The notes below the pieces were generated by a model. The model worked only from the letters and a program-made list of their open reading frames with translations. It made no database searches and was not told where the DNA came from. This document shows, in pieces, positions 3,856 through 60,074 of a stretch of 64,000 nt of DNA (within the stretch, counting starts at the first letter, position 1; each line of letters begins with the position of its first letter). Origin of the DNA: a virus (lineage: Duplodnaviria > Heunggongvirae > Uroviricota > Caudoviricetes); IMG/VR virus record IMGVR_UViG_2671180890_000004; one strand, 5' to 3'. Both the position numbers and the translations under genes were made by a program.

Positions 3856-5625
3856 ATGAATGCTGCCCTGACTGAACGACTGGTTTATGTCGCCCGCGCG
3901 GCACGTGACGCGGGGCATGGTAAACGCGGCGCAGTATACGACGCTGCCTGTGCTGAACTTGGCATGTCCCGCGCCACTCTGCTGCGCAGGCTGAAGGAGG
4001 TATCTGTGACTGATAAACGCAAAAAACGCGCCGATGCCGGGCGCAGCGCCCTGACCCGCGACGAAGCCGCGCTGATATCTGCCACACTGCGTGAGGCCAC
4101 CCGCAAGAACGGTAAGCGTCTCTATTCCATCGCGGATGCAGTGGAAACCCTGCGGGCTAACGGCTTTATATCCGCAGGCAGAACAGATGAAACCACCGGT
4201 GAGTTTTTCCCGTTGTCCGAAGATGCCATCAGCCGAGCCCTGCGTAACTATGGCCTGCACCCGGAACAACTGGATGCCCCTGCGCCGCATACCGAAGTGG
4301 CCAGTCTGCATCCCAATCATGTCTGGCAGATTGACGCCTCACTCTGCACGCTTTACTACCTGAGCAATGGACATAAAGGGCTGCAGGTGATGGACAGCGC
4401 GAAGTTCTACAAGAACAAGCCCGCTAACCTTGCCCGTATCGCCAGTGACCGCGTGTGGAGTTACGAGATTACCGACCATGCCAGCGGCTGGATTTACGTT
4501 GAGTATGTGACGGGCGCGGAATCAGGTGAGAACCTGTGTTCTGTGCTTATCAACGCCATGCAGGAGCGTGGCGGCGCAGACGTGCTGCACGGTGTGCCGA
4601 AAATACTCTATCTCGACCCCGGCTCGGCAAACACCGCGGGTATGACGAAAAACATGTGCCGCTCACTGGGCATCGACCTGATAGCGCACAAGCCGCATAA
4701 CGCCCGCGCCACCGGACAGGTGGAAAAGGCGCGGGACATTATCGAACGCAAGCTGGAGCCGGGTCTGAAGTTCCGGCCGGTTCACAGTCTGGAAGAACTC
4801 AACGCGCTGGCCGCGAAATGGCGCAGCCACTTTAACGCCACGGCTGTTCACAGCCGCCACGGTAAAACCCGCACGGATATCTGGCTGAAGATTACTGCTG
4901 AGCAGCTGAAAAAAGCGCCTTCCGTTGAGGTATGTCGTGAACTGGCTGTGGCGGCACCAGAACTCCGCAAAGTCACGCCAAAACTTCGTGTCTCGTTCCG
5001 GGGCACTGAATTTGACGTATCAACGGTACCGGGCGTACTGGTTGGTGAAAAACTGATGATTACCCGTAACCCGTGGCGCAGCGATGTGGCACAGGTGGTT
5101 CTGACCGGTGAGGACGGCCACGAGACGTTCTTCCTGGTCGAAGAGGTCAGAAAGAACGAGTTTGGCTTTGCTGAAGGCGCGGCGGTATTTGGCGAAAGTT
5201 ACAAAGCCCTGCCGGAAACCCCGGCGCAGATGGCGGCAAAAGAAACCGAAGCGCTGGTCACCGGTACAGACAACGCCGCAGATGCAGCTGCCGCACGCAA
5301 GGCGAAGGCGCTGCCGTTCGGCGGGCGGCTTGACCCGTATAAACATATCGACGACACCACACTTCCGGCCTATATGCCGAAGCGTGGTCAGGCCTCTGAC
5401 GTACGCGGGCCGCGCACTGAACAACGTCCCATGACTTATGTGGAGGCCGCGAAAGCCCTGCGCGATAAGTTCAGCGCCAACGGCTTTACCTGGACGCCGG
5501 AACATTACCGCCAGTTAACGGCACAGTATCCGGACGGCGTACCGGAAGCCGCACTGGATGAAGTCATGGCCACGCTGACCACGCCGGCCCGCAGCAGCGT
5601 TATCAGTATTGTTAACGGCAACTGA
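3856..5625 (+). CDS. Mu-family DDE transposase (A protein)
   Basis: Catalytic-core signatures in MuA-like context and spacing: WQIDASL, YLDPGSANT, GQVEKARD. GGAGG RBS upstream. Confidence 0.85.
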   Translation: MNAALTERLVYVARAARDAGHGKRGAVYDAACAELGMSRATLLRRLKEVSVTDKRKKRADAGRSALTRDEAALISATLREATRKNGKRLYSIADAVETLRANGFISAGRTDETTGEFFPLSEDAISRALRNYGLHPEQLDAPAPHTEVASLHPNHVWQIDASLCTLYYLSNGHKGLQVMDSAKFYKNKPANLARIASDRVWSYEITDHASGWIYVEYVTGAESGENLCSVLINAMQERGGADVLHGVPKILYLDPGSANTAGMTKNMCRSLGIDLIAHKPHNARATGQVEKARDIIERKLEPGLKFRPVHSLEELNALAAKWRSHFNATAVHSRHGKTRTDIWLKITAEQLKKAPSVEVCRELAVAAPELRKVTPKLRVSFRGTEFDVSTVPGVLVGEKLMITRNPWRSDVAQVVLTGEDGHETFFLVEEVRKNEFGFAEGAAVFGESYKALPETPAQMAAKETEALVTGTDNAADAAAARKAKALPFGGRLDPYKHIDDTTLPAYMPKRGQASDVRGPRTEQRPMTYVEAAKALRDKFSANGFTWTPEHYRQLTAQYPDGVPEAALDEVMATLTTPARSSVISIVNGN

Positions 5626-18321: not shown

Positions 18322-19137
18322 ATGTTGCAGCCAGCAAAAAAAGCATCAGTTATTAGCGCGCGGCTAACTAAATACCTCAAAGATGGAGTGAGGATTGATG
18401 ACTTTAGCTTTAGAAGGATGTTACGTGAGATTGAAGCACTTAGAGATCCTGTCTCTGAGGACTATCTTTTAGCGTTGGTCTATGGTGCACATGGTCAAGT
18501 GAATGAGGCGATAGGCTTCTTTGAGCGTTCCTTGCAGGTATGCCATAATGAGGTTGTTGCAAAGAATTTTCTTGTTTTCTTGTCAGATTACGGTACGTTG
18601 AAGAAAAGCTTTGAAACAAGCATTAAGCTTGCTGAAAGCTTCATATCCCCGTTTATTTATCTTCAAGCTTATGAAAACTCCCTCTTTATGGGGAAGATGG
18701 CGTTGGCGGAGAAGTATTTCCAGTCATACTCTAAATTGTTCGGAGATAAGGAGCCTGAAAAAATGGACAACCATCTTGATGAAGTTGTTTCCCAGGTCGA
18801 ATCCTTTAAGCAACGTGCCGATCTTTCTGGTTTAGAATATGAACTTATTTTCAATAATGTAGCCAATGTCATGGATTCTCAGAAGGTTCATCTTTCGGGA
18901 ATGCGTTTTTATAATATTTCGGAAGAGAAAGTGAATGCGATTGTATTCATGACAAAGTCTTCTGATGCTGAACAAATCGCTGATATGAATATTGAGCTTG
19001 CTTTTTCAATGGCTGAGCACGATTGTTTAGTCGGTAAAGATTTTGCTGTTTGGTTTGAATGTAAAGACACACATATTGAGCAGAATGCTATCTCCGAATT
19101 AGGTCTGATTACCCGGAGGGTTGCACATGCCGGTTAA
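18322..19137 (+). CDS. hypothetical cargo protein (271 aa), first gene of att-int cassette
   Basis: AT-rich ORF between the att core and int; no motif recognised. Confidence 0.5.
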   Translation: MLQPAKKASVISARLTKYLKDGVRIDDFSFRRMLREIEALRDPVSEDYLLALVYGAHGQVNEAIGFFERSLQVCHNEVVAKNFLVFLSDYGTLKKSFETSIKLAESFISPFIYLQAYENSLFMGKMALAEKYFQSYSKLFGDKEPEKMDNHLDEVVSQVESFKQRADLSGLEYELIFNNVANVMDSQKVHLSGMRFYNISEEKVNAIVFMTKSSDAEQIADMNIELAFSMAEHDCLVGKDFAVWFECKDTHIEQNAISELGLITRRVAHAG

Positions 19138-19510
19138 TAGTCAAGATTTTCTCGGTTTTGCAAAAGACTGTCATCAACGTAATGACGAAATCGGCTATCG
19201 AAATGCTATAGCAAGATCCTACTATGGCGCTTACCATCATGTCTTGCCTTGTATGGTAAACGGGCCGAAAGACAGTCATCAGGGGCTAATCAATTATTTG
19301 CAGGGCGATGCTTCAAGAGGAAGTGAAGTATATGAAGCTAGATATCTAAAAGGGATTAGTTTTATCCTGAGTCAACTTAAAGCTCAGAGGATTGTTGCAG
19401 ACTATCGACTTGATCAATCGGTCACTTCTAAACAGTCTGAAGTTGCGATTCTAACAACTGAGAGGCTCTTTGCTAAGTGTACGGAAATGCTTAAATCGAG
19501 AGCCTCCTAA
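19127..19510 (+). CDS. hypothetical cargo protein (~128 aa), coupled to upstream gene
   Basis: ATG at 19127 with GGAGGG RBS, overlapping the upstream stop by 11 nt; contains an R-x6-H segment (RSYYGAYHH) that could be HEPN-like (speculative). Confidence 0.45.
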   Translation: MPVNSQDFLGFAKDCHQRNDEIGYRNAIARSYYGAYHHVLPCMVNGPKDSHQGLINYLQGDASRGSEVYEARYLKGISFILSQLKAQRIVADYRLDQSVTSKQSEVAILTTERLFAKCTEMLKSRAS

Positions 19511-19517
19511 TTGATAA

Positions 19518-19539
19518 AGCCACTTAAGTGGCTTTTTTT
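19518..19539. terminator. bidirectional terminator between cargo operon and int
   Basis: Stem AGCCACTT / AAGTGGCT followed by T7. Confidence 0.5.
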
Positions 19540-20696
19540 GTGATATTGCTGGTCGTATTACCGTCATATTCCTTTAAATATGAACCATAATGACGAAATA
19601 ACATTTCCGGCCCTTTATGCCCCATTTGAGCTGCAAGCCAAAACAGGTTTGCTCCCCGGCTGATATGGCGGGTGGCGAATGTATGCCTAGTTTGATATGG
19701 ATTTCTGTAACGAATACCTGCTTTTCGCAATGTTGGCACCCATGCTTTTTTCCTGATTGCATCAGCACTTGCCCAGGGCTTATTGGTCTTTGGATCTTCA
19801 AAGACAGTAGCATCCTTCATGAATGTAAATGGCTTCTGATTTATCAGCGCCAACATTGCTTCTTCAGTCAGTTCAACTTTACGGGTACCGGCTTTTGTCT
19901 TTGTCCCTTTGATAACACCGACAACACTTGCGCTCTGGACATGGGCAGTTTTTCCAACAAAGTCGATATCACGCCATCGAAGGGCACATAATTCAGAACT
20001 ACGCAGGCCTGTATGTATAGCGAACCGGAACAGATTTTCCCATTGTTTTTTTCCGGCTGCTGCTAGTAATGCATCAACTTCTGCTGGTGATAGCGGATCA
20101 ACCACGTAGCTGCTTTCTGCTTCTGACTTATCACTTTGGTAGCGCGAAGCAGTTACCAACGATACGGGGTTAATTTGAAGTACCCCATCGGTTACGGCTT
20201 CATCAAGTGCTGACCGCAGGAAAGATAACTGGTTGCGAATTGTTTTTAAGGTCGTTTTCTGGCTTTGAATCCACGCTTTCAGGATTGCTGGTGTTAATTC
20301 ACTTGCAGGGCAAATGTGGAGTGAGGCTAACGCACTACGGCATTTTTTATAACCACCAATCGTAGAGGGTGAAAGTTTTCTTGTTTCGCAGATTTCAAGA
20401 TATTCGTCCAGGTACATCTTTACCGTTTTGCCTGCAGCAGCATTACCAAAAATTTTCAAACGAGCAGAACGGGGAAAATATTCTGCATAAATGAATGTTC
20501 CCCTTTCGATCTTATTATGGATTTCGCCGAGTGTACGCTCGGCGTATTTAATGTTCTTTGGTGTTACTTCCAGATTGGAAAGCGGCTCACGACATCTAAC
20601 TCCTTTGTAGGTGAAAGTTATATTGATCGTTTCTCCCTGGCGGTGTTTCCTGATTGTTACGCCGCGCGGTAGTTTGAGCAGTTTTGTCTGGCCCAT
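19524..20696 (-). CDS. int: tyrosine recombinase (phage integrase)
   Basis: C-terminal catalytic region with conserved R (LRSSELCALRWRD), HxxR (HTFATRH) and tyrosine near LFRHYGSY; adjacent to the att core. Confidence 0.85.
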   Translation of the reverse strand: MGQTKLLKLPRGVTIRKHRQGETINITFTYKGVRCREPLSNLEVTPKNIKYAERTLGEIHNKIERGTFIYAEYFPRSARLKIFGNAAAGKTVKMYLDEYLEICETRKLSPSTIGGYKKCRSALASLHICPASELTPAILKAWIQSQKTTLKTIRNQLSFLRSALDEAVTDGVLQINPVSLVTASRYQSDKSEAESSYVVDPLSPAEVDALLAAAGKKQWENLFRFAIHTGLRSSELCALRWRDIDFVGKTAHVQSASVVGVIKGTKTKAGTRKVELTEEAMLALINQKPFTFMKDATVFEDPKTNKPWASADAIRKKAWVPTLRKAGIRYRNPYQTRHTFATRHISRGANLFWLAAQMGHKGPEMLFRHYGSYLKEYDGNTTSNITKKAT

Positions 20697-20902
20697 TTTG
20701 CAACCTCACTAAGATCAATCCACCTCTCCTTAACGCCTTCAACCTTTAAAACCTGAACACCTTCACGCCAAACACCGCGCTGTACACGTTTGTTTATTGC
20801 TTCAGGAGTTTCGCCAGTTTCTTTGCAATAAGTTGAGATAGGAACACAATCGAGGTTCAGCATACGTTTCTCCATTATCCCGTCTGCACACGGGAGCAAC
20901 AT
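20657..20902 (-). CDS. xis: excisionase-like DNA-binding protein
   Basis: Small basic protein overlapping the int start; likely true start at MEKRM (20875) with AGGAG-like RBS. Confidence 0.6.
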   Translation of the reverse strand: MLLPCADGIMEKRMLNLDCVPISTYCKETGETPEAINKRVQRGVWREGVQVLKVEGVKERWIDLSEVAKWARQNCSNYRAA

Positions 20903-20904
20903 TA

Positions 20905-21795
20905 TTAACGAATAGTGTCGTTACTTTGAAGTACAGCAAATGCCATTAATACTTCTAAAGTATATCTTCTATAAAATTTAACAAAACCAACATAGAAAAC
21001 ATAGACGAAGAAAAAGCTAAGCATTATTGAAAGTAAACTATAAAGATAATCACTATGAGTACATAATCGATAAATAAAGGTTGGAACTGATACCCAAAAT
21101 GAAATTATAAAGATTAAACATATGTTTCTGCAAAAACCATATAATGCAACATAGTTTTGAATTTTTGTTTGATGTTGTTTTGAAAACTCATAAACATAAT
21201 GATATGCCAATCTGAAGAGATCATCATCAAGTCCGTTTTTATCTTGTAATAATTGGCGATTTGTTATGAACTTTTTCTCATAACCTTCTTTGATCATTAA
21301 CCATGTTGTATTAGCTAAATGAAATGGTAGAGATTGAGAATAACATAGTTTTTGTGTTATAAAATCCCATAGTATTATTGGACATAATACGCATTTGATT
21401 ATGCGATTCTTTATTTTTGTTTTTTTATCAGCGCTTCTCTCATCGCATGATGGGCTACAAATGCTTTCTGAGGTATCTATCAATTTTTTAAATAGATATT
21501 TGGAAGGATATCCTAATTCTTTATTCATGTATTTTTCGATAAAAAATGCTGACGTGATAGAAATAAAATGTCCAGCTATATAAGATATAATAACTATTGA
21601 AGCGTAGTTCAAAATGCCAAAGATTTGACTTTGACCTCTGAGCAATTCACTTAAGTCAATAACAATATCTAGATCGAATGTCAAACCACAGAAATACATT
21701 AATAGGATGAAAAAACCACCTGGTATTAAATATCCAAGAAAGTCATAGAATGAGAATGGATTTTGATTCATTGTTGCTCTCCAATAATTTTTCAA
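20905..21795 (-). CDS. polytopic membrane protein (296 aa), AT-rich cargo
   Basis: Very AT-rich codon usage; several predicted TM helices; immediately upstream of xis in the leftward operon. Confidence 0.5.
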   Translation of the reverse strand: MKNYWRATMNQNPFSFYDFLGYLIPGGFFILLMYFCGLTFDLDIVIDLSELLRGQSQIFGILNYASIVIISYIAGHFISITSAFFIEKYMNKELGYPSKYLFKKLIDTSESICSPSCDERSADKKTKIKNRIIKCVLCPIILWDFITQKLCYSQSLPFHLANTTWLMIKEGYEKKFITNRQLLQDKNGLDDDLFRLAYHYVYEFSKQHQTKIQNYVALYGFCRNICLIFIISFWVSVPTFIYRLCTHSDYLYSLLSIMLSFFFVYVFYVGFVKFYRRYTLEVLMAFAVLQSNDTIR

Positions 21796-21879
21796 TTTGT
21801 AATATAACCTATATCTATATGTTAATAAATTACTTATATGTTCTTTTATGGCAGAGTTTGAATTCGTACGTGCTGATTT

Positions 21880-22431
21880 TTACGACTCAGTTAACTCTTT
21901 AAAGCGTTCCATAAACATCCCATAGGTATGGCCTGGCGACAGTGGAATAACTTTGAACATCTCTGTTGCCGGGATACCTTCCAGTACGGGCCAGAAAGAG
22001 CCATCATCAAGCCCGAGATCGCGGCGTTCGGTTGCCAGCATGATGAGATCGGCATATTTCACGGGCGTACTCATAACCGGGGGTAACCCGTATTTCTCAC
22101 GGATTACGGCGTCTATTTTTTCTTCCATCCGTTTATAGTCAGGAAGAAGGCGTTTCAGTGGCGCCGGGATGTCCTGGCAATACGCTTCTGTTGCATCATG
22201 CATTAACGCTTCAAAAGCAAATTCCTGCGGTACCAGTTGGCTGCAAAGCACCGCATGTTGGGCGACGCTGTAGAAATGTGAAAGATGTCCTGCAAAGCGA
22301 CAGATATTTGAAAGAGAAACCGCGATATCGTTAATAACGATGTCGTCTTTATTTATCCTGTCATAATAAAAATGCTTCCCGGAAAAAGTTTTAATAAATG
22401 ACATTTTGTTCTCCACGTATATGCGCTGCAC
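21880..22431 (-). CDS. HD-domain phosphohydrolase (YfbR/YfdR-like 5'-deoxynucleotidase family)
   Basis: H...HD motif (RFAGHLSH...ALMHDATEAY). Confidence 0.55.
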   Translation of the reverse strand: MQRIYVENKMSFIKTFSGKHFYYDRINKDDIVINDIAVSLSNICRFAGHLSHFYSVAQHAVLCSQLVPQEFAFEALMHDATEAYCQDIPAPLKRLLPDYKRMEEKIDAVIREKYGLPPVMSTPVKYADLIMLATERRDLGLDDGSFWPVLEGIPATEMFKVIPLSPGHTYGMFMERFKELTES

Positions 22432-23784: not shown

Positions 23785-24384
23785 TTTGCTGCTCCTCATC
23801 ATATCGACCCTGCAAGGCCGATTAGTTTCTCCACAAAACAGAGAAGAACACCTGCGGTGGCAGCCGCCCCGGTGGATTGGGTTATGAGCCCGTCGTCCGG
23901 TGATGCTCTTCTCTGTTTTGTAAAAAGAGCGGTACCAGCCGGAAGCAAGGGTAGAAGCTGGTACCGCCAGGACTACACACAGCATAAAGTTGTGGTGCCG
24001 GGTGCCTCCCGGTGCCTGGCGAAGGTTGCACACCAGGCGGGTGGGTATCCACAGAAGGTCGACTGTCAGCCTCAACCTTAACCCGCGTGCGCTGAGCCGC
24101 ATTCACCACAACGCTAAGGATTCTCTCAGGTTGAAAATACTTAGCTGTTATGTGCCTGTCTTTTCACCACTTCAGGCTCGGTGGTATCCTTTTAAGCCCG
24201 TATACATAAAAGGAAAATCAAATGACTTTTGATGAAAAAGAACTTGATAATGCAATTAATAAAATCATCGTAACGTCGCTCTTTTCCTGTCTCAGCGACA
24301 CTCAGCAAAAACAGTTCTACGAATCGGCTTTCAACATGATCGAGCGTTGTTGTTTCTGCGATGCCGACGAGTTACCTGAAAAAA

Positions 24385-24681: not shown

Positions 24682-24817
24682 GAGTGCCTAGTGGCACAAC
24701 ATGACTCAACGAATCATCCTGGACTTCATATGCCCCAGGCGGCTACTTCGTGGGCGTCCTGCCTGTTCGTTGTTTCGCTTAGGTACATTATGTATCTCAA
24801 GGGTACATTGTCAAGTA

Positions 24818-29167: not shown

Positions 29168-29553
29168 AGCTGATCCTGCCTTTCCCGCCCAGCGTGAACA
29201 CGTACTGGCGACACCCCAACAAAGGGGCGTTTGCAGGTAAGAGCCTGATAAGCGCGGCGGGGCGAAAATTCCAGAGCGCGGCGTGCGCAGCAATAGTTGA
29301 GCAGTTACGTCGTCTGCCGAAACCAACGTCGGCACCTGCTTCAGTGGAGATCGTGTTGTTTCCTCCGGATAACCGGATCCGCGATCTGGACAACTATAAC
29401 AAGGCGCTGTTTGACGCCCTGACCCACGCGGGTGTGTGGGAAGACGACAGTCAGGTGAAAAGAATGCTGGTGGAGTGGGGACCGGTTATCCCGGAAGGGA
29501 AGGTCGAGATCACTATCAGTAAGTACGAGAAAACGGCGGGTGCAGCCGCCTGA
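29164..29553 (+). CDS. rusA: Holliday-junction resolvase RusA
   Basis: RusA-like pattern including RDLDNYNKALFDALT. Confidence 0.8.
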   Translation: MKLILPFPPSVNTYWRHPNKGAFAGKSLISAAGRKFQSAACAAIVEQLRRLPKPTSAPASVEIVLFPPDNRIRDLDNYNKALFDALTHAGVWEDDSQVKRMLVEWGPVIPEGKVEITISKYEKTAGAAA

Positions 29554-59490: not shown

Positions 59491-60074
59491 TGGCATTCAG
59501 AATGAGTGAACAAGCACGGACCATAAAAATTTATAATCTGCTGGCCGGAACTAATGAATTTATTGGTGAAGGTGACGCATATATTCCGCCTCATACAGGT
59601 CTGCCAGCAAACAGTACCGATATTGCACCACCAGATATTCCGGCAGGCTTCGTGGCTGTTTTCAACAGTGATGAGGCATCGTGGCATCTCGTTGAAGACC
59701 ATCGGGGTAAAACGGTTTATGACGTGGCTTCCGGCGACGCGTTATTTATTTCTGAACTCGGTCCGTTACCGGAAAATGTTACCTGGTTGTCGCCGGGAGG
59801 GGAATATCAGAAGTGGAACGGCACAGCCTGGGTGAAGGATACGGAAGCAGAAAAACTGTTCCGGATCCGGGAGGCAGAAGAAACAAAAAACAGCCTGATG
59901 CAGGTAGCCAGTGAGCATATTGCGCCACTTCAGGATGCTGTAGATCTGGAAATCGCAACGGAGGAAGAAACCTCATTGCTGGAAGCCTGGAAAAAGTATC
60001 GGGTGTTGCTGAACCGTGTTGATACATCAACTGCACCGGATATTGAGTGGCCAGAAGAACCAGACACCGTGTAA
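59490..60074 (+). CDS. tfa: tail fibre assembly protein
   Basis: Size and position after stf. Confidence 0.75.

What the first reader, a model, noticed from the sequence alone, without database searches (positions are those of the whole stretch)
20905..21795. Very AT-rich polytopic membrane protein directly upstream of xis
This 296-aa protein with several predicted TM helices has codon usage very different from the phage backbone and sits in the int-proximal cargo region. Single membrane proteins here are often superinfection-exclusion or abortive-infection factors.
Basis: inference. Interest (0 to 1): 0.45.

Follow-up and report, generated by a model that had tools for sequence, protein, structure and literature searches.

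The report
Orphan prophage four-helix membrane protein
A real, very AT-rich gene in an E. coli prophage encodes an inner-membrane protein of a large, unnamed and never-tested family that temperate phages carry in their cargo slots; an anti-phage role is plausible but unproven.

Summary
The gene is real, but it starts at the ATG at 21771 (288 aa), not at the TTG at 21795. It has 28.5% G+C in a 44-46% prophage backbone, four transmembrane helices, and lies 41 nt upstream of xis. It matches no Pfam, NCBIfam, PDB or BFVD entry, and no transporter or envelope enzyme. It belongs to a broad, patchy family (942 clusters at 50% identity, many phyla). Members stand alone, with no conserved neighbour, and have lower G+C than their flanks in 76 of 76 loci. 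E. coli alleles are under purifying selection (dN/dS about 0.2). In Enterobacteria the gene recurs just upstream of at least four unrelated excisionase families. It also lies in the P2 gpA-gpQ hotspot, where Rousset 2022 list it, untested, as the third commonest cassette (with a DUF4760 protein). Only its N-terminal two-helix module resembles Csx27, tm_4 and PDC-M48A; it is not a Csx27. The conserved residues sit at the cytoplasmic face. The best reading is a mobile, single-gene membrane factor in phage-phage conflict (exclusion or abortive infection), at about 0.4. No experiment exists. It is a well-defined candidate, not a discovery.

The parts
20905..21771 (-). Coding sequence of the 288-aa four-TM protein (stop codon included).
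   Evidence: ORF list. RefSeq annotation WP_001075212.1. GGAG RBS and ATG. Homologue N-termini. dN/dS of 0.16-0.24 among alleles.
21532..21759 (-). N-terminal module (aa 5-80): the NPFSxYDFLGYxxPG motif, TM1 (aa 12-34), a short variable periplasmic loop and TM2 (aa 52-78, with Y64, G67, H68, S74, E79). This is the only part resembling Csx27, tm_4 and PDC-M48A.
   Evidence: PADLOC hits of N-terminal halves only, at model positions 4-65. 41 of 58 members hit Csx27. Reversed-sequence control 0 of 20. NCBIfam Csx27 hits 13 of 58 members, all below the cut-off. Invariant columns.
21232..21531 (-). Basic helical insert of about 100-125 aa between TM2 and TM3 (aa 81-180), predicted cytoplasmic. Its sequence is poorly conserved apart from GYPS (aa 87-90) and P131.
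   Evidence: Family mean charge: K+R 18.5 against D+E 11.8. Helices in the AF2 model. Entropy profile.
20932..21231 (-). Family-specific C-terminal core (aa 181-280). It comprises the juxtamembrane helix DxFRxxYHYxxExxxxHxxKxQNYVALYGFxR, TM3 (aa 207-232), a short variable periplasmic loop, TM4 (aa 243-267) and the FxKFYRRxTLExLMA tail. This is the most conserved part and has no match to anything known.
   Evidence: Alignments A1 and A2. Entropy. No PADLOC hit for C-terminal halves. Core dN/dS 0.05-0.13.
21796..21825 (-). Promoter-like site TTAACA-18 nt-TACAAA, 25 nt upstream of the ATG, inside the 108-nt AT-rich spacer after yfdR (21772-21879). It is weak in this allele.
   Evidence: Sequence. 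It falls below the scan threshold here. The same position in the 85% allele reads TTAACA-18-TATAAT, 11 of 12. The proximal 65 nt are more conserved than the coding sequence. Other alleles have their own TATAAT or 10-of-12 sites. AT-rich DNA gives many chance matches, so this is weak evidence.
20878..20895 (-). Hairpin TCCCGT-GTGCAG-ACGGGA between the gene's stop codon and the xis Shine-Dalgarno sequence. It is a gene-boundary element that travels with the 3' end of the gene.
   Evidence: The same loop with compensating stems follows alleles of 100 to 48% identity, ahead of unrelated excisionase genes. The window holds 3 such hairpin+SD sites against 0.2 expected.
20657..20863 (-). xis (68 aa), the downstream flank of the cargo slot. 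It overlaps the start of int (19524-20696).
   Evidence: phrog_2917 excisionase, E=8e-45. RefSeq coordinates.
21880..22404 (-). yfdR (5'-deoxynucleotidase), the upstream flank of the slot. Homology with other prophages ends at its stop codon.

Best explanation
The gene is a self-contained, horizontally mobile cargo cassette of temperate phages. It encodes an inner-membrane protein with four TM helices. The N-terminus, the basic insert and the C-terminus are all predicted to be cytoplasmic. Its conserved polar residues (D10, H68, S74, E79, H191, E195, H200, K203, N206, R215, K265, R268, E273) cluster at the cytoplasmic face of the membrane, and the periplasmic loops are short and free to vary. 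The most likely role is in phage-phage conflict. Made in the lysogen (or early after induction), the protein would sit in the inner membrane. It would respond at its cytoplasmic face to an infection cue, or to the incoming DNA-translocation machinery. It would then either block genome entry (exclusion) or perturb the membrane (abortive infection). Shown here: the gene, its composition, predicted four-TM fold (modelled, not determined), family, mobility, genomic slots and purifying selection. Inferred: topology (positive-inside rule), expression in lysogens, and the whole functional step.
For: (1) It is a real, selected gene: dN/dS is 0.16-0.24 among E. coli alleles whose dS reaches 0.4-0.8, while the adjacent xis stays 90-99% identical. 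Old alleles have therefore been swapped into one slot.
(2) It recurs in accessory slots. It lies immediately upstream of excisionases of at least four unrelated families, close to the prophage end. In one arrangement it is the only gene between the repressor's terminator and xis. It also lies in the P2 gpA-gpQ hotspot, which Rousset 2022 showed to be rich in defence systems. There it is part of cassette #3, with 1102 occurrences.
(3) It is solitary and mobile. No neighbour is conserved across 81 loci from many phyla. G+C is below the flanks in 76 of 76 loci, by a mean of 10 points, against +1 for control genes.
(4) The N-terminal module is shared with Csx27, tm_4 (type VI-B CRISPR accessories) and PDC-M48A (a defence-island candidate). 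A reversed-sequence control was clean.
(5) Some members lie in defence-like islands or next to type I R-M systems. The neighbours beyond int are HEPN-like, putAbiC, DUF4238 or Panacea genes.
(6) It is found only in temperate phages (9 phage records) and hardly ever on plasmids.
Against: No phenotype exists anywhere. There is no hit for its accessions in the searched literature, nor in the supplementary files of DefensePredictor that are held, some of which are truncated. It matches no known Sie or Abi model. Outside Enterobacteria most neighbours are housekeeping genes: 112 different Pfam families among 148 neighbours, with R-M in only about 3 of 37 loci. The P2 hotspot also holds non-defence cargo such as partition systems and toxins. 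In the window the gene lies in the leftward early operon, and its own promoter is weak in this allele. Expression in the lysogen is therefore not assured, and such AT-rich DNA may be silenced by H-NS (general knowledge). The conserved core faces the cytoplasm, which does not fit exclusion factors that act in the periplasm.
Confidence: 0.4

Rival explanations
1. The gene is an early phage function that serves the phage itself. It would be transcribed with the leftward early operon after induction or infection. The membrane protein would then remodel or take over the host membrane, exclude superinfecting phage only during lytic growth, or counteract a host membrane-associated defence. The last idea is by analogy with Csx27, which lowers Cas13b interference.
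For: It has the same strand and order as yfdP-yfdQ-yfdR-gene-xis-int. It occupies the position of the lambda 'ea' genes (general knowledge). The hairpin-SD junction links it to xis as it links other early genes. The gene-proximal promoter is weak in this allele. Csx27 represses Cas13b in E. coli.
Against: Most family members are not in phages at all. The 78% allele is kept intact in a decayed, integrase-less prophage remnant found in more than 2000 assemblies. Other alleles carry good promoters of their own and, in one case, follow the repressor's terminator. E. coli has no Cas13b to inhibit.
Confidence: 0.2
2. The protein is a membrane enzyme or lysogenic-conversion factor that acts on a lipid, a lipid-linked or another envelope substrate at the inner leaflet. 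Any phage resistance would come indirectly, through an altered envelope.
For: There is an invariant cluster of H, E, K, R, S, N and Y residues at the membrane-cytoplasm interface, including H191xxxE195xxxxH200. Purifying selection on that core is strong. The family is widespread in non-phage contexts next to metabolic genes. AT-rich polytopic envelope-modifying genes often sit near phage att sites (general knowledge).
Confidence: 0.15
3. The protein is a Csx27-type membrane channel for nucleic acid. Makarova et al. 2019 predicted this for the Csx27 family: a conduit or gate for single-stranded DNA across the inner membrane.
For: The N-terminal module is homologous to Csx27 and tm_4. Secondary sources report the channel prediction for Csx27. 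The cytoplasmic insert is basic.
Against: The similarity covers only about 75 N-terminal residues, and the family-defining C-terminal half is unrelated. None of the Csx27-family neighbours is present: no competence genes, ubiquitin-like modules, WYL-HTH or cas13b. The channel idea itself has never been tested. The primary paper could not be read.
Confidence: 0.1
4. The gene is a functionless hitch-hiker or a decaying ORF.
For: Extreme AT-richness, no annotation and a weak promoter.
Against: dN/dS is 0.05-0.13 in the core. The full-length reading frame is intact in hundreds of clusters across phyla. A high-confidence fold is predicted from co-variation.
Confidence: 0.02

Closest known systems
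Cassette #3 ('DUF4760') of the P2 gpA-gpQ hotspot, Rousset et al. 2022, Table S5B
   Same: Its second protein (280 aa, '4 TM') belongs to the same family. It is 42-43% identical over the full length, with the same motifs. It is carried by a temperate phage in a variable cargo locus.
   Different: In P2 it is paired with a 165-aa, single-TM DUF4760 protein. That partner is absent from the window and from every other locus examined. The cassette was catalogued but not tested.
Csx27 (type VI-B1 CRISPR accessory protein) and the related PADLOC families tm_4 and PDC-M48A
   Same: All are four-TM proteins. They share an N-terminal module (aromatic/Gly/Pro-Gly motif plus TM1 and TM2). It is detected by two independent Csx27 models and is clean in a reversed-sequence control.
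   Different: Scores lie far below the curated cut-off (14.9 bits against 65). Similarity is confined to about 75 residues. This family has an extra cytoplasmic insert of about 100-125 aa and an unrelated, highly conserved C-terminal half. No cas13b or CRISPR context is present.
RexB of phage lambda, and RexB-like 4-TM proteins of P4 hotspots
   Same: It is a prophage-encoded four-TM inner-membrane protein, the classic membrane effector of abortive infection (general knowledge).
   Different: No sequence similarity: hhalign E=0.49 for a RexB-like control and no PADLOC Rex hit. RexB needs RexA, whereas this gene stands alone.
Membrane superinfection-exclusion proteins (P22 SieA, lambda SieB, T4 Imm, HK97 gp15)
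   Same: Each is a single small inner-membrane protein of a phage that blocks other phages. That is the mechanism class proposed here (general knowledge).
   Different: tblastn against 50,697 phage records finds only Klebsiella prophage-type phages and P2-like phages, none of the phages named. The conserved surface here is cytoplasmic.
Csx28 (type VI-B2 accessory pore)
   Same: It is a membrane accessory protein of an immune system. It was shown to form a pore that depolarises the membrane, and so models how a small TM defence protein can work.
   Different: It is an unrelated protein with a HEPN-like domain, it depends on Cas13b, and no similarity was detected.

Membership tests
Csx27 (type VI-B1 CRISPR accessory protein) | Score at or above the curated family cut-off (NCBIfam NF040557, 65 bits) | tested here: not met
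   The window protein scores 14.9 bits, E=0.02. The best of 58 relatives reaches E=3.7e-5. All are below the cut-off.
Csx27 (type VI-B1 CRISPR accessory protein) | Colinear similarity over the whole four-TM protein of about 200 aa | tested here: not met
   Only N-terminal halves match (model positions 4-65 of 206). C-terminal halves of five members give no hit.
Csx27 (type VI-B1 CRISPR accessory protein) | Encoded next to cas13b and a CRISPR array | tested here: not met
   The neighbours are yfdR, xis and int. No cas gene lies within 6 kb on either side in the RefSeq annotation of the identical locus.
Csx27-like superfamily (shared N-terminal two-TM module) | Specific, composition-independent similarity of the N-terminal motif plus TM1-TM2 | tested here: met
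   41 of 58 members hit the PADLOC Csx27 model (best E=1.3e-8) and 15 of 58 hit tm_4. Reversed sequences give 0 of 20.
Prophage superinfection-exclusion / abortive-infection factor | Carried by temperate phages in a variable accessory locus | tested here: met
Prophage superinfection-exclusion / abortive-infection factor | Homology to a known Sie, Abi or defence family | tested here: not met
   PADLOC gives only the weak Csx27 and tm_4 hits. The PHROG family has unknown function. No P22, lambda, T4 or HK97 matches.
Prophage superinfection-exclusion / abortive-infection factor | Expressed in the lysogen and reduces infection by other phages | not testable with these tools
   Only promoter-like sequences are available. 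No published phenotype was found.
Defence-island gene (guilt by association) | Most family members lie next to known defence genes | tested here: inconclusive
   Genes within two positions either side, in 37 loci, show type I R-M in about 3 loci and integrases in 2. The rest are diverse housekeeping genes. Only 4 genes per locus were sampled and there was no formal background. One member lies in a clear defence-like island.
P2-hotspot cassette #3 (DUF4760 + 4-TM protein) | 4-TM protein of the same family | tested here: met
   42-43% identity over 285 aa.
P2-hotspot cassette #3 (DUF4760 + 4-TM protein) | Adjacent DUF4760 partner | tested here: not met
   tblastn with the DUF4760 protein finds it only in the P2-like loci, not in the window.

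The most novel reading that the evidence does not exclude
This could be the founding, prophage-borne representative of a new, widespread, single-gene membrane immunity family. On this reading, a stand-alone relative of the Csx27, tm_4 and PDC-M48A module guards the cytoplasmic face of the inner membrane against incoming phage genomes. Its study would also explain what the still-enigmatic Csx27-type accessory proteins do. The KTGCAG hairpin-SD junctions would be the joints by which such cassettes are shuffled between lambdoid early operons.
Probability: 0.25. Interest if true: 0.7.

Novelty: new variant of a known kind. Interest (0 to 1): 0.45.

Why it matters
If it is a defence or exclusion factor, it adds a common, compact system. 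It is one gene of 867 bp, present in about 4% of complete E. coli genomes as this allele alone, and it is the third commonest P2-hotspot cassette. It is missing from Pfam and the NCBIfam naming models, and PADLOC (v2.0.0) has no model that recognises it as a defence family. It would also give an experimentally easy E. coli entry point to the Csx27-like membrane module, whose role in type VI-B CRISPR systems is still unexplained. If it is not defensive, it is still a large, strongly conserved membrane-protein family with a confidently predicted fold that has no solved relative.

Tried and rejected
- Pfam, NCBIfam, PHROGs and PADLOC scans of the protein and of 58 relatives gave no informative family except weak Csx27, tm_4 and PDC-M48A hits.
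- A profile search against PDB sequences found nothing.
- Ten longer relatives were checked for domain fusions. They have no extra Pfam domain, only longer loops or extra TM segments.
- A conserved-neighbour search over 81 genome loci found none.
- Treating the Csx27 hits as a compositional artefact was rejected by the reversed-sequence control.
- Full Csx27 membership was rejected by the half-protein scans.
- SNIPE (PD-lambda-1) was considered as an analogue. It is unrelated: single TM, DUF4041 and GIY-YIG.
- Literature and supplement searches for the accessions, the N-terminal peptide and DUF4760 found only the untested Rousset table entry. Some DUF4760 proteins are listed as 'predicted novel defence genes' in DefensePredictor.
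- The primary Csx27-family paper (Makarova 2019) is not held.
- Rfam found nothing at the hairpin or downstream of cI. There are no tRNAs in the window.
- A pseudogene or junk reading was rejected by dN/dS.

Full report
**Observation**

The window is E. coli chromosome carrying a lambdoid (CPS-53/yfd-type) prophage next to csiD. An identical locus is annotated in strain ST70. The reported ORF exists at 20905-21795 on the minus strand.

The real start is almost certainly the ATG at 21771, giving 288 aa:
- It has a GGAG 6 nt upstream.
- RefSeq annotates exactly this 867-nt gene as hypothetical protein WP_001075212.1.
- The PHROG profile and every homologue start at MNQNPF.

The gene has 28.5% G+C (GC3 21.8%). 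The values for int, xis, yfdR, yfdQ and cI are 44-46% (GC3 38-47%), and the window as a whole is 50.7%. An uninterrupted 296-codon frame in such AT-rich DNA has a chance probability of about 1e-11.

Hydropathy gives four TM helices at aa 12-34, 52-78, 207-232 and 243-267, with a soluble segment of about 125 aa between TM2 and TM3. AlphaFold2 with a 58-sequence alignment gives an all-helical model with pLDDT 89.5 and pTM 0.88. A 19-sequence alignment gave only 70.5.

The stop codon is 41 nt from the xis start, and int follows.

**The slot**

In 2970 of 5426 complete E. coli genomes something matches the 1.9-kb query. Only 204 hold the whole of it. Elsewhere, homology stops exactly at the yfdR stop codon (about 21885). 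The interval down to xis then carries other small genes: yfdS, DUF551, DUF4222 or hypotheticals. The gene is therefore a cassette in a variable slot at the distal end of the leftward early operon.

**The family**

- A single-sequence search finds 593 clusters at 90% identity, all 'hypothetical' and without Pfam.
- A profile search of 1.84 billion representatives finds 942 clusters at 50% identity (487 at E<=1e-10). Nearly all are 270-300 aa.
- A second profile search again returns only unnamed proteins.
- Members occur in Gammaproteobacteria, Bacteroidota, Bacillota, Chloroflexota, Acidobacteriota, Gemmatimonadota and others.

Sixteen columns are invariant over 58 diverse members: F6, G13, Y14, P17, G18, Y64, G67, S74, E79, P89, P131, H191, Y207, R215, K265 and E273. 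Many more are nearly invariant, including N4, D10, H68, E195, H200, K203, N206 and R268.

Across the family the insert carries K+R 18.5 against D+E 11.8, and the C-tail 4.0 against 2.8. The two short loops are neutral to acidic. By the positive-inside rule, the N-terminus, insert and C-terminus are cytoplasmic. This topology is an inference.

Conservation is concentrated in the cytoplasm-proximal parts (aa 1-20, 61-90, 191-220, 261-280). The periplasm-proximal halves of the helices and both periplasmic loops are the most variable regions.

**What it is not**

- No Pfam or NCBIfam family reaches significance for the window protein or recurs across its relatives.
- No PDB sequence matches the profile.
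- Foldseek against viral models finds nothing.
- Longer relatives carry no extra known domain.

It cannot be excluded for an unknown enzyme class.

**Relation to Csx27**

PADLOC gives a weak Csx27 hit for the window protein (E=1.4e-5). Of 58 relatives, 41 hit the Csx27 model (best E=1.3e-8), 15 hit tm_4 and a few hit PDC-M48A. An independent NCBIfam Csx27 model hits 13 of 58, all far below its 65-bit cut-off.

Reversed sequences of 20 members give no such hits, so composition is not the cause. When five members were split, only the N-terminal 90-odd residues matched (model positions 4-65 of 206). C-terminal halves matched nothing.

Another small 4-TM protein from the P2 hotspot aligns weakly to the same module (hhalign E=0.0023). 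A RexB-like control does not.

The protein therefore shares an N-terminal two-helix module with several defence-associated membrane proteins, but it is not a Csx27. Csx27 itself is mechanistically unexplained. It lowers Cas13b interference in E. coli and was predicted to be a DNA channel. A 2026 review adds nothing further.

**Genomic contexts**

Across 81 genome loci no neighbouring gene family is shared by more than three loci. Genes within two positions either side of the family member, sampled in 37 loci, hit 112 different Pfam families. Type I R-M appears in about three loci and integrases in two.

Individual look-ups show varied settings:
- one member lies between fabA/fabB and threonine-biosynthesis genes;
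- one lies beside a urease operon;
- one lies in an integrative element full of defence-like genes: WYL, AAA, NYN, a restriction-like gene, methylase with Vsr, and a MORC-like ATPase.

In all 76 loci with enough flank, the family member has lower G+C than its surroundings. The mean difference is -10 points, and 66 of 76 are below -5. Control genes in the same loci average +1, with 11.6% below -5. The family is thus a solitary, patchy, foreign-looking gene everywhere.

**In Enterobacteria it is phage cargo**

tblastn finds it only in temperate phages: Klebsiella phages, again directly before xis-int, and P2-like phages. It is almost never on plasmids (4 of 72,556 records).

In 77 viral contigs:
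- Alleles of 100, 85 and 78% identity sit before the same xis-int (90-100% identical).
- Alleles of 52-48% identity sit before excisionase genes of at least three further, mutually unrelated families, about 1.3-2.4 kb from the prophage end.
- In an icd-integrated prophage, the gene is the only gene between the terminator of the cI-like repressor and xis. A 10-of-12 promoter match lies 110 nt upstream.
- The 78% allele is kept intact in an integrase-less prophage remnant next to dinF-lexA. That protein is indexed in more than 2000 blocks of the assembly collection.
- The 42-43% alleles lie between gpQ and gpA of P2-like phages.

Rousset et al. 2022 showed that the gpQ-gpA interval is a hotspot containing many anti-phage systems, along with partition systems and toxins. 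Their Table S5B lists this very protein ('4 TM in protein 2') with a 165-aa DUF4760 protein as system #3, with 1102 occurrences. It does not appear in their table of tested systems. The DUF4760 partner is confined to the P2 loci.

Some larger DUF4760 proteins are 'predicted novel defence genes' in DefensePredictor. The 4-TM protein was not found in the files of that paper that are held, and some of those files are truncated.

**Selection and expression signals**

Among E. coli alleles dN/dS is 0.16-0.24 overall. It is 0.05-0.13 in the conserved core and 0.23-0.88 in the periplasm-proximal regions. dS reaches 0.4-0.8 although the adjacent xis is nearly identical. The gene is functional, and old alleles have been exchanged by recombination.

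The 65 nt before the ATG are better conserved than the coding sequence. In the 85% allele they contain TTAACA-18-TATAAT (11 of 12). In the window allele the same site reads TTAACA-18-TACAAA at 21796-21825, below the scan threshold. Promoter-like matches are frequent in AT-rich DNA, so autonomous expression is suggested, not shown.

**Mechanism**

The best-supported reading (confidence about 0.4) is a single-gene, mobile membrane factor used in phage-phage or phage-host conflict. The protein would be an inner-membrane four-helix protein whose conserved, charged cytoplasmic face senses or binds something. Candidates are a phage product, the DNA-entry machinery or a small ligand. It would then block genome entry or compromise the membrane.

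The steps shown are composition, predicted four-TM fold, family, mobility, slots and selection. Topology, timing of expression and the activity itself are inferred.

Rivals:
- an early phage function, including anti-defence (0.2);
- an unrecognised membrane enzyme or lysogenic-conversion factor, suggested by the invariant H, E and K cluster (0.15);
- a Csx27-type nucleic-acid channel (0.1);
- junk (0.02, contradicted by selection).

**Novelty and verdict**

The family is unnamed in Pfam and NCBIfam, is not recognised as a defence family by PADLOC, has no solved structural relative, and has no published phenotype. It has been seen before only as an untested line in a supplementary table. Its N-terminal module ties it loosely to Csx27-like proteins. 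I rate it a new variant of a known kind (phage-borne membrane accessory proteins), with interest 0.45. It is a clean, cheap-to-test candidate rather than a demonstrated novelty.

Noticed in passing
window 20878-20895 (-), 23803-23822 (-), 29535-29550 (+); also L002, L087-L138, L177: A recurrent gene-boundary element: a 5-7 bp hairpin with an invariant loop KTGCAG, followed 3-14 nt later by a Shine-Dalgarno sequence and a start codon. The window has 3 against 0.2 expected from shuffles. The enterobacterial prophage loci hold about 30 distinct versions with many different, complementary stems (one further match in a non-enterobacterial locus, L029, looks like chance). It follows the TM gene ahead of unrelated excisionase families. 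There is no Rfam match. It may be a recombination joint of lambdoid early operons or an RNA processing/translation signal. My recollection of 'boundary sequences' in HK97/HK620-type phages could not be confirmed in the library. The stems were selected for pairing, so no unbiased covariation test was made.
   Followed up: partly
window 18322-19137 (+) and 19121-19510 (+): A two-gene, overlapping, fairly AT-rich module lies between host csiD and the prophage int. It encodes a 271-aa protein with weak TPR hits (phrog_17809) and a 129-aa protein with a weak HEPN hit (PADLOC HEPN_IX, E=0.0014, with an R-x6-H motif in RSYYGAYH; phrog_5176). It looks like a second cargo slot (att-int) holding a candidate toxin-antitoxin or defence pair. 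Related prophages carry other genes there: DUF6650, putAbiC or DUF4238.
   Followed up: no
window about 24700-24770; L177 about 5300-5370: A block of about 65 nt is nearly identical in two otherwise different prophages. It lies just downstream of the intrinsic terminator of the cI-like repressor gene. No convincing ORF and no Rfam family were found (best E=0.49). It may be an unannotated sRNA or operator region.
   Followed up: partly
L171-L176 (E. coli/Shigella chromosomes near dinF-lexA): The 78% allele of the TM gene persists intact in an integrase-less prophage remnant (yfdP-yfdQ-yfdR-TM-PyocinActivator-like gene). A SocA/Panacea-domain gene lies next to it. The remnant is very widespread, indexed in more than 2000 blocks of the assembly collection.
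   Followed up: partly
L003 4470-4964 (+) (Escherichia phage vB_EcoM-705R2, ON470623): The DUF4760 gene of the P2-hotspot cassette is 100% identical to the Rousset Table S5B protein. It is not annotated in the GenBank record, which instead calls small ORFs on the opposite strand.
   Followed up: no
window 59833-60031 (+): This is the only Rfam gathering-score hit in the window: IS009 (RF02111, 229 bits). No tRNA gene is present anywhere in the 64 kb, so the prophage is not integrated at a tRNA within the window.
   Followed up: no
L004-L083 (family members in many phyla): Every family member has lower G+C than its flanks (76 of 76 loci), including in hosts with 60-70% G+C, where the gene is still 10-28 points lower. 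This low G+C is a family-wide property, not a peculiarity of the E. coli copy.
   Followed up: yes
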